Shown one piece after another: positions 61,872 to 64,000 of a stretch of 64,000 nt of DNA. A model generated the notes under the pieces. The model saw only the letters and a program-made list of their open reading frames with translations. It searched no databases and was not told the origin of the DNA. The stretch is from Escherichia coli (GTDB taxonomy: Bacteria; Pseudomonadota; Gammaproteobacteria; Enterobacterales; Enterobacteriaceae). Position 1 is the stretch's first letter. Each line of letters starts with the position of its first letter. Where the stretch lies: the NCBI RefSeq assembly GCF_024298765.1, contig NZ_CP101210.1, one strand, 5' to 3'. The translations under genes and the position numbers were made by a program.

Positions 61872-62831
61872 GTGGCACAACGAGATTATGTACGCCGCAG
61901 CCAACCGGCACCTTCGCGGCGAAAAAAGAGCACCTCACGGAAAAAGCAACGAAATTTGCCTGCGGTTTCTCCCGCTATGGTCGCTATTGCTGCCGCCGTT
62001 CTTGTGACCTTTATCGGTGGTCTGTACTTCATTACGCATCACAAGAAAGAAGAGTCCGAGACGCTGCAAGGCCAGAAAGTGACCGGAAACGGACTACCAC
62101 CAAAACCAGAAGAACGCTGGCGCTACATTAAAGAGCTGGAAAGTCGCCAGCCGGGTGTGCGTGCGCCCACAGAACCTTCTGCCGGTGGTGAAGTGAAAAC
62201 GCCGGAGCAGCTGACACCAGAACAACGTCAGCTTCTTGAACAAATGCAGGCCGATATGCGCCAGCAGCCAACGCAGCTGGTTGAAGTTCCGTGGAATGAG
62301 CAGACGCCGGAACAGCGTCAGCAAACGCTACAGCGCCAGCGTCAGGCACAGCAATTAGCGGAGCAGCAACGCCTGGCTCAGCAGTCGCGTACGACTGAAC
62401 AAAGCTGGCAGCAGCAGACGCGTACGTCGCAAGCCGCACCGGTACAGGCGCAACCGCGCCAGTCTAAACCGGCTTCTACTCAGCAGCCGTACCAGGATCT
62501 GCTGCAAACCCCTGCGCACACGACCGCGCAGTCGAAGCCGCAGCAAGCTGCGCCGGTTGCTCGTGCCGCTGACGCGCCAAAACCGACGGCGGAGAAAAAA
62601 GACGAACGCCGCTGGATGGTGCAGTGCGGTTCGTTCAGAGGCGCGGAACAGGCAGAGACGGTACGTGCTCAGCTGGCGTTTGAAGGCTTTGACTCGAAAA
62701 TCACCACCAACAATGGCTGGAATCGTGTGGTCATTGGCCCGGTGAAAGGCAAAGAGAACGCAGACAGCACCCTCAATCGCTTGAAGATGGCGGGTCATAC
62801 AAACTGCATTCGGCTCGCCGCCGGGGGTTGA
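61872..62831 (+). CDS. ftsN: Cell-division protein FtsN (319 aa)
   Basis: GTG start; single TM segment, Gln/Pro-rich linker, C-terminal SPOR domain (WMVQCGSFRGAEQAETVRAQLAFEGF). Confidence 0.93.
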   Translation: MAQRDYVRRSQPAPSRRKKSTSRKKQRNLPAVSPAMVAIAAAVLVTFIGGLYFITHHKKEESETLQGQKVTGNGLPPKPEERWRYIKELESRQPGVRAPTEPSAGGEVKTPEQLTPEQRQLLEQMQADMRQQPTQLVEVPWNEQTPEQRQQTLQRQRQAQQLAEQQRLAQQSRTTEQSWQQQTRTSQAAPVQAQPRQSKPASTQQPYQDLLQTPAHTTAQSKPQQAAPVARAADAPKPTAEKKDERRWMVQCGSFRGAEQAETVRAQLAFEGFDSKITTNNGWNRVVIGPVKGKENADSTLNRLKMAGHTNCIRLAAGG

Positions 62832-62888
62832 AACCCTCAAAATCCCCCCCATCTATAATTGCATTATGCCCCGTACTTTTGTACGGGG
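62828..62888 (+). promoter_or_regulatory. hslVU sigma-32 heat-shock promoter with 5' leader hairpin
   Basis: TTGAAA (62828-62833), 13-nt spacer, CCCCATCT (62847-62854); then perfect hairpin CCCCGTAC-TTTT-GTACGGGG at 62869-62888. Confidence 0.7.
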
Positions 62889-62923
62889 TTTGTACTCTGT
62901 ATTCGTAACCAAGGGGTCAGCTC

Positions 62924-63454
62924 GTGACAACTATAGTAAGCGTACGCCGTAACGGCCATGTGGTCATCGCTGGTGATGGTCAGGCCACGTTGGGCAATAC
63001 CGTAATGAAAGGCAACGTGAAAAAGGTCCGCCGTCTGTACAACGACAAAGTCATCGCGGGCTTTGCGGGCGGTACTGCGGATGCTTTTACGCTGTTCGAA
63101 CTGTTTGAACGTAAACTGGAAATGCATCAGGGCCATCTGGTCAAAGCCGCCGTTGAGCTGGCAAAAGACTGGCGTACCGATCGCATGCTGCGCAAACTTG
63201 AAGCACTGCTGGCAGTCGCGGATGAAACCGCTTCGCTTATCATCACCGGTAACGGTGACGTGGTGCAGCCAGAAAACGATCTTATTGCTATCGGCTCCGG
63301 CGGCCCTTACGCCCAGGCTGCGGCGCGCGCGCTGTTAGAAAACACTGAACTTAGCGCCCGTGAAATTGCTGAAAAGGCGTTGGATATTGCAGGCGACATT
63401 TGCATCTATACCAACCATTTCCACACCATCGAAGAATTAAGCTACAAAGCGTAA
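62924..63454 (+). CDS. hslV: ATP-dependent protease subunit HslV (176 aa)
   Basis: [39 protein letters not shown]..., N-terminal Thr nucleophile after Met. Confidence 0.96.
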
Positions 63455-63463
63455 GGATCTCCC

Positions 63464-64000
63464 ATGTCTGAAATGACCCCACGCGAAATCGTCAGCGAAC
63501 TGGATAAGCACATCATCGGCCAGGACAACGCCAAGCGTTCCGTGGCGATTGCTCTGCGTAACCGCTGGCGTCGCATGCAGCTCAACGAAGAGCTGCGCCA
63601 TGAAGTGACCCCGAAAAATATCCTGATGATCGGCCCGACCGGTGTCGGTAAAACTGAAATCGCCCGTCGTCTGGCTAAGCTGGCGAATGCGCCGTTCATC
63701 AAAGTTGAAGCGACCAAATTCACCGAAGTGGGCTATGTCGGTAAGGAAGTGGATTCTATTATTCGCGATCTGACCGATGCCGCCGTGAAAATGGTACGTG
63801 TCCAGGCTATCGAGAAAAACCGTTATCGCGCTGAAGAACTGGCAGAAGAACGTATTCTCGACGTACTGATCCCACCGGCTAAAAACAACTGGGGACAGAC
63901 CGAACAGCAGCAGGAACCGTCCGCTGCTCGTCAGGCATTCCGCAAAAAACTGCGTGAAGGCCAGCTTGATGACAAAGAAATCGAGATCGATCTTGCCGCA
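63464..64000 (+). CDS. hslU: ATP-dependent protease ATPase subunit HslU (5' part only; continues beyond the window)
   Basis: ATG 63464; [40 protein letters not shown]...; Walker A GPTGVGKT. No stop within the window. Confidence 0.93.

What the first reader, a model, noticed from the sequence alone, without database searches (positions are those of the whole stretch)
62828..62888. hslVU sigma-32 promoter followed by a perfect 8-bp leader hairpin
A sigma-32 promoter (TTGAAA-N13-CCCCATCT) is immediately followed by CCCCGTAC-TTTT-GTACGGGG. This is a very stable stem-loop at the start of the hslVU mRNA, of the kind that protects heat-shock transcripts from 5' decay or modulates translation.
Basis: partly seen in the sequence, partly recalled or inferred. 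Interest (0 to 1): 0.25.

Follow-up and report, generated by a model that had tools for sequence, protein, structure and literature searches.

The report
Known hslVU heat-shock promoter and leader hairpin
This is the textbook E. coli heat-shock promoter of the hslVU (clpQY) protease operon followed by a conserved RNA hairpin that has already been shown experimentally to stabilise the message, so it is real but ordinary.

Summary
TTGAAA (62828-62833), a 13-nt spacer and CCCCATCT (62847-62854) are followed 14 nt later by CCCCGTAC-TTTT-GTACGGGG (62869-62888). This lies in the 92-nt spacer between ftsN and hslV. The window is E. coli: the 301 bases compared differ from K-12 MG1655 at one position, inside ftsN.

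The hairpin plus downstream leader matches Rfam RF02401 "ClpQY_promoter" at 63.6 bits (gathering score 42). Lien et al. 2009 (PMC2681174) showed three things. Expression depends on RpoH, a point mutation in the -10 element abolishes heat induction, and the stem-loop stabilises the mRNA. Deleting or disrupting the stem speeds decay; swapping its arms restores stability.

My comparison of 43 Enterobacteriaceae leaders agrees. Five G-C pairs are invariant and two inner pairs show compensatory changes. There are 25 G·U cells on the sense strand against 1 A·C cell, and 27 different loops. The -10-to-hairpin distance is 14 nt in 42 of 43.

Three rivals fail: an ftsN terminator, a DNA operator and an RNA thermometer.

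Nothing is new. One loose end remains: the published "71-nt" transcription start falls inside the -10 element. Every plausible start still lies upstream of the hairpin.

The parts
61872..62831 (+). ftsN coding sequence; its stop codon TGA (62829-62831) lies inside the -35 hexamer
   Evidence: ORF list; RefSeq annotation under 100%-identical E. coli matches; MG1655 annotation
62828..62833 (+). -35 element TTGAAA of the sigma-32 hslVU (clpQY) promoter
   Evidence: Sequence; motif search finds 1 match against 0.02 expected; TTGAAA in 42 of 43 Enterobacteriaceae sequences, TTGGAA in the other; assigned as the RpoH -35 by Lien 2009
62847..62854 (+). -10 element CCCCATCT of the sigma-32 promoter, within a run of seven C (62844-62850)
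   Evidence: A published C-to-T mutation in this element lowers expression 1.7-fold and abolishes heat and RpoH induction. The spacer is 13 nt in 40 of 43 species
62854..62859 (+). TATAAT hexamer overlapping the sigma-32 -10 (sigma-70/sigma-38-like); not part of the proven mechanism
   Evidence: Sequence. TATAAT in 20 and TATACT in 20 of 43 species. Lien 2009 report no effect of rpoS loss or of mutating the putative RpoS -10. It lies 19-20 nt from TTGAAA and was not called by the sigma-70 scan
62853..62863 (+). Zone containing the transcription start. Published +1 is 71 nt upstream of GTG (= 62853); the start expected 6-8 nt after the -10 is 62861-62863
   Evidence: Lien 2009 citing Chuang 1993; coordinate arithmetic; the expected spacing is inference from general knowledge of sigma-32 promoters
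62869..62888 (+). Leader RNA hairpin CCCCGUAC-UUUU-GUACGGGG (8 bp, or 9 with the G62868·U62889 pair); the mRNA-stabilising element
   Evidence: Fold results; 96.4% of cells paired across 43 species with 2 compensatory pairs; strand-asymmetric G·U pairs; published deletion, disruption and arm-swap mutants
62869..62926 (+). Match to Rfam RF02401 ClpQY_promoter (hairpin plus conserved leader through the GTG start)
   Evidence: cmscan 63.6 bits against gathering score 42, E = 1.6e-13, full-length model 1-57
62911..62916 (+). Shine-Dalgarno sequence AAGGGG of hslV, not sequestered by the hairpin
   Evidence: Sequence; invariant in the alignment, though it was part of the search pattern; pairing probability about 0.5, unchanged from 30 to 50 C
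62924..63454 (+). hslV (clpQ) coding sequence, GTG start
   Evidence: ORF list; RefSeq annotation
63464..64000 (+). 5' part of hslU (clpY), which runs off the window end
   Evidence: Sequence: ATG at 63464 ten bases after the hslV stop. The name follows from the established hslVU operon order in E. coli; it was not searched separately

Best explanation
The segment is the RpoH (sigma-32) heat-shock promoter of the E. coli hslVU (clpQY) operon. Its -35 hexamer overlaps the ftsN stop codon. RNA polymerase with sigma-32 starts transcription a few bases downstream of CCCCATCT. The first structured element of the transcript is then a very stable GC-rich hairpin (62869-62888), beginning roughly 6-16 nt from the 5' end. 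This hairpin acts at the RNA level as a 5' stabiliser: it slows decay of the hslVU message and so raises HslV/HslU output. It does not act through its sequence, through temperature sensing, or by occluding the ribosome-binding site.

Shown by published work: RpoH dependence, the role of the -10 element, and the stability effect of the stem. Inferred: that protection works by impeding 5'-end-dependent attack (RNase E/RppH type), as for ompA.
For: Identity. The region is 100% identical to E. coli chromosomes and present in 5425 of 5426 genomes. It differs from K-12 MG1655 at 1 of 301 positions, inside ftsN.

Curated family. Rfam RF02401 ClpQY_promoter matches at 63.6 bits against a gathering score of 42.

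Experiments in PMC2681174. The clpQ::lacZ fusion is heat-induced, and this is lost in rpoH but not rpoS mutants. A -10 C-to-T mutant is no longer induced. The 40-bp leader deletion, the delta-IR and delta-L constructs and the stem-disrupting S-IR construct give low mRNA and protein. Delta-IR mRNA decays faster after rifampicin. The arm-swapped R-IR stem restores mRNA levels.

My comparison of 43 distinct Enterobacteriaceae leaders, found with a pattern that excludes the hairpin. CCCCG/CGGGG is invariant. Pair 6 is C-G in 21, U·G in 16 and U-A in 4. Pair 7 is A-U in 32 and G-C in 10. Overall 96.4% of cells are paired, against 29-63% when the 3' partner is slid. There are 27 different loops of variable length (3 to about 9 nt). 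There are 25 G·U cells on the sense strand against 1 A·C cell. The -10-to-hairpin distance is 14 nt in 42 of 43.

The hairpin's pairing probability is 1.00 from 30 to 50 C.
Against: The exact +1 is unsettled. The published '71 nt' start maps to 62853, inside the -10 element, which cannot be right for that promoter. I could not retrieve an independent start-site dataset.

If the start is at 62861-62863, 5-7 nt are left unpaired at the 5' end. That is more than the 0-4 nt considered optimal for ompA-type protection.

The stability experiments used pBAD constructs carrying vector-derived 5' sequence, not the native 5' end.

The nuclease involved was never identified; the authors found no RNase E or RNase III motif.

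Covariation rests on few independent events. The A-U to G-C change is confined to the Klebsiella/Raoultella group.
Confidence: 0.88

Rival explanations
1. The hairpin is primarily the intrinsic terminator of ftsN, or an attenuator in the hslVU leader. It sits 37 nt after the ftsN stop codon and in E. coli is followed by UUUGUACU.
For: A GC-rich 8-9 bp stem sits just downstream of a convergently ending gene. The E. coli tail has 5 T in 8 if counted from the 8-bp stem.
Against: The terminator scan did not call it. The T-rich tail is confined to Escherichia. In 43 species the first four bases after the stem are CCTG, CCCC, CTTG or CGCT in 31, and TTTG in only 3. The curated Term-seq 3'-end lists for MG1655 in three conditions contain no sense-strand 3' end in the ftsN-hslV spacer. 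Removing the stem lowers, rather than raises, downstream mRNA.
Confidence: 0.06
2. The perfect palindrome is a DNA operator for a dimeric regulator sitting just downstream of the start site.
For: It is a perfect 8+8 palindrome at about +7 to +26, a classic repressor position.
Against: The half-sites are not symmetric in most species. There are 25 T/G cells (G·U in RNA) against 1 A/C cell, an asymmetry that only makes sense for sense-strand RNA. The spacer between arms varies in length and sequence, with 27 loop variants. An arm-swapped stem with a different DNA sequence works under a heterologous promoter.
Confidence: 0.03
3. The hairpin is an RNA thermometer or translational modulator, like the ROSE or fourU elements of other heat-shock genes.
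For: It is a heat-shock operon with a structured leader.
Against: The stem ends 22 nt upstream of the Shine-Dalgarno sequence and does not pair with it. The stem's pairing probability stays at 1.00, and Shine-Dalgarno accessibility is unchanged, from 30 to 50 C. The authors state there is no thermosensitive segment. Transcriptional fusions and mRNA levels are affected, not only translation.
Confidence: 0.02

Closest known systems
Rfam RF02401 ClpQY_promoter, the clpQY (hslVU) 5' UTR stem-loop of Lien et al. 2009, Open Microbiol J 3:29 (PMC2681174)
   Same: It is the same element at the same locus. The match covers the full model at 63.6 bits, and the sequence is identical to K-12 across the promoter and leader.
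   Different: Nothing. The window copy is the E. coli type sequence.
ompA and papA 5'-terminal stabilising stem-loops of E. coli
   Same: Each is a stable hairpin near the 5' end of an mRNA that prolongs half-life through its structure rather than its sequence. The authors themselves draw this comparison.
   Different: In ompA the hairpin sits within a few nt of the 5' end, and RNase E 5'-end dependence has been demonstrated (general knowledge). For hslVU the distance to the 5' end is uncertain (about 5-16 nt) and the nuclease is unidentified.
Canonical sigma-32 promoters (dnaK P1, groE, ibpA): consensus TTGAAA-N13-15-CCCCATnT
   Same: Perfect match to both hexamer blocks with a 13-nt spacer; RpoH dependence is published.
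   Different: The -35 hexamer overlaps the stop codon of the upstream gene, and a TATAAT hexamer overlaps the -10. Neither is unusual enough to matter.
RNA thermometers of heat-shock genes (ROSE, fourU, the rpoH mRNA)
   Same: Structured leader of a heat-shock gene.
   Different: No Shine-Dalgarno sequestration and no melting in the physiological range. Not a member.

Membership tests
Rfam RF02401 ClpQY_promoter | Covariance-model score at or above the curated gathering score (42 bits) | tested here: met
   63.6 bits, E = 1.6e-13, model positions 1-57 of 57, window 62869-62926 +
Rfam RF02401 ClpQY_promoter | Located in the 5' leader directly upstream of hslV/clpQ | tested here: met
   The match ends on the hslV GTG (62924-62926); RefSeq annotates hslV there
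Sigma-32 (RpoH) promoter | -35 TTGAAA and -10 CCCCATnT separated by about 13-15 nt | tested here: met
   TTGAAA-N13-CCCCATCT at 62828-62854; 1 match against 0.02 expected; conserved in 43 Enterobacteriaceae leaders, with spacer 13 in 40, 14 in 2 and 15 in 1
Sigma-32 (RpoH) promoter | Transcription depends on RpoH and is heat-induced | not testable with these tools
   Published: lost in rpoH mutants, kept in rpoS mutants; the -10 C-to-T mutant is not induced (PMC2681174)
Sigma-32 (RpoH) promoter | Mapped +1 at the proper distance (about 6-8 nt) downstream of the -10 | tested here: inconclusive
   The published '71 nt upstream of GTG' corresponds to 62853, inside the -10. No independent start-site dataset could be retrieved
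5'-proximal mRNA-stabilising hairpin (ompA/papA type) | Stable stem-loop conserved as a structure, not as a sequence | tested here: met
   deltaG -14.5 kcal/mol; 96.4% of cells paired; 2 pairs with compensatory change; 27 loop variants; 25 G·U cells against 1 A·C cell
5'-proximal mRNA-stabilising hairpin (ompA/papA type) | Disrupting the stem shortens mRNA half-life; restoring pairing rescues it | not testable with these tools
   Published: delta-IR and S-IR give low, fast-decaying mRNA; the arm-swapped R-IR resembles wild type
5'-proximal mRNA-stabilising hairpin (ompA/papA type) | Hairpin within a few unpaired nucleotides of the 5' terminus | tested here: inconclusive
   0-7 unpaired nt depending on the assumed start (62853 to 62868). 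The -10-to-hairpin distance is fixed at 14 nt in 42 of 43 species
5'-proximal mRNA-stabilising hairpin (ompA/papA type) | Protection is against 5'-end-dependent RNase E/RppH decay | not tested
   No data found; the authors saw no RNase E or RNase III motif
Rho-independent terminator (of ftsN) | GC-rich stem immediately followed by a U-tract, with a transcript 3' end there | tested here: not met
   Not called by the scan; the tail is not T-rich outside Escherichia; no sense-strand Term-seq 3' end
RNA thermometer (ROSE/fourU) | Shine-Dalgarno or start codon sequestered in a helix that melts between 30 and 42 C | tested here: not met
   The stem is 22 nt from the Shine-Dalgarno sequence; pairing probability is 1.00 at 30-50 C and Shine-Dalgarno accessibility is flat; the authors report no thermosensitivity

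The most novel reading that the evidence does not exclude
The palindromic hairpin may be used on both strands. On the sense strand it is the hslVU 5' stabiliser. Read on the antisense strand, it may define or protect the 3' end of an antisense transcript that runs out of hslV toward ftsN. Term-seq records a 3' end 5 nt past the stem on that strand, and none on the sense strand. If real, this antisense RNA could interfere with the sigma-32 promoter.
Probability: 0.12. Interest if true: 0.3.

Novelty: already known. Interest (0 to 1): 0.07.

Why it matters
It matters little beyond correct annotation. The element is one of the few bacterial protease operons with a demonstrated 5' stabilising hairpin. 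It sets HslVU levels, which affect turnover of SulA, RcsA, sigma-32 and LpxC. Two small open points remain: the exact +1, and which nuclease the stem blocks. Neither would surprise a specialist.

Tried and rejected
1. Independent start-site and 3'-end datasets.
- Nonaka 2006, Thomason 2015 and Missiakas 1996 are not held.
- The Cappable-seq GTF was truncated before this locus.
- The Conway 2014, Rend-seq and 3'-UTR-valve papers have no supplements held.
- The Kim 2012 supplements do not mention hslV.
- Only the Adams 2021 Term-seq tables were usable.

2. Sigma-70 promoter reading. The scan finds no sigma-70-type promoter in 62500-63200. The TATAAT at 62854-62859 is 19-20 nt from TTGAAA. Published mutation of the putative RpoS -10 had no effect.

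3. Extended leader helix. The window fold pairs 62860-62867 with 62892-62901. The consensus fold of 43 species does not keep this pairing, so I do not claim it.

4. anti-hemB. The Rfam hit (15.5 bits against a gathering score of 49.5) is noise.

5. "Perfect hairpin beyond chance" as an argument. Rejected, because perfect 8-bp hairpins occur about 7 times by chance in 64 kb.

Full report
**What is in the sequence**

Reading 62400-64000 and listing ORFs shows the order priA, cytR, ftsN (61872-62831), hslV (GTG at 62924, ending 63454) and the start of hslU (ATG at 63464).

The finding's coordinates are exact:
- TTGAAA is at 62828-62833. The ftsN stop codon TGA (62829-62831) lies inside it.
- The spacer is 13 nt.
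- CCCCATCT is at 62847-62854, within a run of seven C (62844-62850).
- After 14 nt (ATAATTGCATTATG) come CCCCGTAC 62869-62876, TTTT 62877-62880 and GTACGGGG 62881-62888.
- G62868 and U62889 can add a ninth pair.

**Is it more than chance?**

The sigma-32 pattern TTGAAA-N12-16-CCCCATNT occurs once in the window, against 0.02 expected.

The hairpin's perfection is not an argument on its own. Perfect 8-bp stems with 3-8-nt loops give 28 register hits in the window, against 6.8 +/- 2.7 in Markov simulations. The leader folds only moderately better than shuffles (-24.4 kcal/mol, z = -2.1). What makes the hairpin real is its context and conservation.

**Identity of the locus**

The 301 bases around the site are 100% identical to many E. 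coli chromosomes. They are present in 5425 of 5426 complete genomes, annotated as ftsN and hslV. Against K-12 MG1655 there is one difference in 301 bases, at 62780 inside ftsN. Promoter and leader are identical to K-12. The coordinate mapping is: window position = 4185211 minus the MG1655 coordinate.

**It is a curated, published element**

Rfam RF02401 "ClpQY_promoter" (type Cis-reg) matches 62869-62926 on the + strand. The score is 63.6 bits against a gathering score of 42, covering the full model.

The source paper is Lien et al. 2009 (PMC2681174). It shows the following:
- clpQ::lacZ fusions and the native clpQY mRNA are heat-induced. Both depend on rpoH and not on rpoS.
- A C-to-T change in CCCCATCT lowers expression 1.7-fold and abolishes induction.
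- A 40-bp leader deletion lowers beta-galactosidase activity and mRNA.
- Under a pBAD promoter, removing the inverted repeat (delta-IR) or the leader (delta-L), or replacing the 3' arm with T's (S-IR, -10.1 kcal/mol), gives low mRNA and low ClpQ.
- Delta-IR mRNA decays faster after rifampicin.
- A stem with swapped arms (R-IR, GGGGCATG-TTTT-CATGCCCC, -24.6 kcal/mol) restores mRNA and function.

The authors conclude that the structure, not the sequence, stabilises the message. They report no thermosensitive segment and no Hfq effect.

**Independent comparative test**

I searched one genome per species with a 21-base pattern covering only the Shine-Dalgarno-to-start region. The pattern is AACCAAGGGGTCNGCTCGTGAC, which excludes the hairpin. 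It returned 49 loci from Escherichia, Salmonella, Citrobacter, Klebsiella, Raoultella, Enterobacter, Kosakonia, Trabulsiella and Intestinirhabdus.

I aligned 43 distinct leaders, window included. Results for the 9-pair helix:

| Feature | Result |
|---|---|
| Cells forming standard pairs | 96.4% (29-63% when the 3' partner is slid by 1-3 columns) |
| Pairs 1-5 of the 8-bp stem (CCCCG/CGGGG) | invariant G-C |
| Extra pair outside the stem (G62868 with U62889 in the window) | G-C in 38, G·U in 4 |
| Pair 6 | C-G 21, U·G 16, U-A 4 |
| Pair 7 | A-U 32, G-C 10 (compensatory) |
| Loops | 27 different sequences, variable length |
| Non-Watson-Crick cells | 25 G·U on the sense strand, 1 A·C |
| -35 to -10 spacer | 13 nt in 40 of 43 |
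| -10 to hairpin distance | 14 nt in 42 of 43 |

The G·U asymmetry is expected only if selection acts on the sense-strand RNA.

One caveat applies. The compensatory changes represent few independent events; the G-C variant of pair 7 is confined to the Klebsiella/Raoultella group.

**Rivals**

*An ftsN terminator or hslVU attenuator.*
- The stem lies 37 nt after the ftsN stop codon, and in E. coli it is followed by TTTGTACT.
- The terminator scan does not call it.
- The T-rich tail is confined to Escherichia. Elsewhere the tail starts CCTG, CCCC, CTTG or CGCT.
- The uncut Term-seq tables of Adams et al. 2021 list no sense-strand 3' end in this spacer in three growth conditions.
- Deleting the stem lowers downstream mRNA rather than raising it.

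*A DNA operator.* This is contradicted by the asymmetric half-sites, the variable spacer and the functional arm-swap.

*An RNA thermometer or translational control.*
- The stem ends 22 nt before the AAGGGG Shine-Dalgarno sequence.
- Its pairing probability is 1.00 from 30 to 50 C.
- Modelled Shine-Dalgarno accessibility does not change with temperature.

**Mechanism, and what is shown versus inferred**

Shown in the literature:
- initiation dependent on sigma-32;
- mRNA stabilisation dependent on the stem.

Shown here:
- family membership;
- structural conservation with sense-strand polarity;
- fixed spacing from the promoter;
- absence of terminator and thermometer features.

Inferred: the stem protects against 5'-end-dependent decay, as the ompA and papA stabilisers do.

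The weak point is the 5' end. The paper's "71 bp upstream of the translational start" corresponds to 62853, which lies inside the -10 element. The paper's own primer F5 (CATCTATAAT...) begins at 62850. With the usual 6-8-nt gap after the -10, the start should be near 62861-62863. That would leave 5-7 unpaired nt ahead of the stem. I could not retrieve an independent start-site dataset.

**Verdict**

The feature is already known, and interest is low.

Noticed in passing
window 62864 (- strand); MG1655 4122347 (+): The only curated Term-seq 3' end in the ftsN-hslV spacer (Adams et al. 2021, supplementary file 1) is on the strand antisense to hslV/ftsN. It lies 5 nt past the palindromic hairpin as read on that strand (...GUACGGGGCAUAA), with no U-tract. 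This suggests an antisense transcript from within hslV whose 3' end is set or protected by the same palindrome.
   Followed up: partly
window 62853 vs 62861-62863: The published hslVU start site ('71 bp upstream of the start codon') maps inside the sigma-32 -10 element CCCCATCT (62847-62854). It is about 8-10 nt upstream of where a sigma-32 start is expected. The authors' primer F5 begins at 62850, giving 74 nt rather than 71. The literature +1 looks imprecise.
   Followed up: partly
window 62844-62859: A run of seven C feeds into the -10, and a perfect TATAAT (62854-62859) overlaps it. Across 43 species the hexamer is TATAAT in 20 and TATACT in 20. A heat-evolved E. coli strain (BM28) carries a 2-bp deletion in this C run, which its authors propose shifts hslVU toward sigma-70 control (PMC10044804).
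   Followed up: partly
L022 4370-4496 (Citrobacter amalonaticus S646); L030 about 1170-1470 (Intestinirhabdus alba): Two species carry insertions (about 122 and about 295 nt) at the same point, right after CCCCATCTATAG. This is between the sigma-32 -10 and the hairpin, so inside the 5' leader. The L022 insert is a dispersed intergenic repeat in E. coli (median 7 places per genome, about 83% identity, unannotated). It looks like an ERIC/IRU element (GTGAATCCCCAGGAGC...GTGACTGGGGTG); that name is from memory. In both species the hairpin is no longer 5'-proximal and is weakened (L022, A·G mismatch) or remodelled (L030).
   Followed up: partly
window 62828-62833 / 62829-62831: The ftsN stop codon TGA is embedded in the -35 hexamer TTGAAA. 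The last ftsN codons (GCC GGG GGT TGA) therefore form the upstream edge of the hslVU promoter. The GGGGGTTGAAACCC block is nearly invariant across genera.
   Followed up: no
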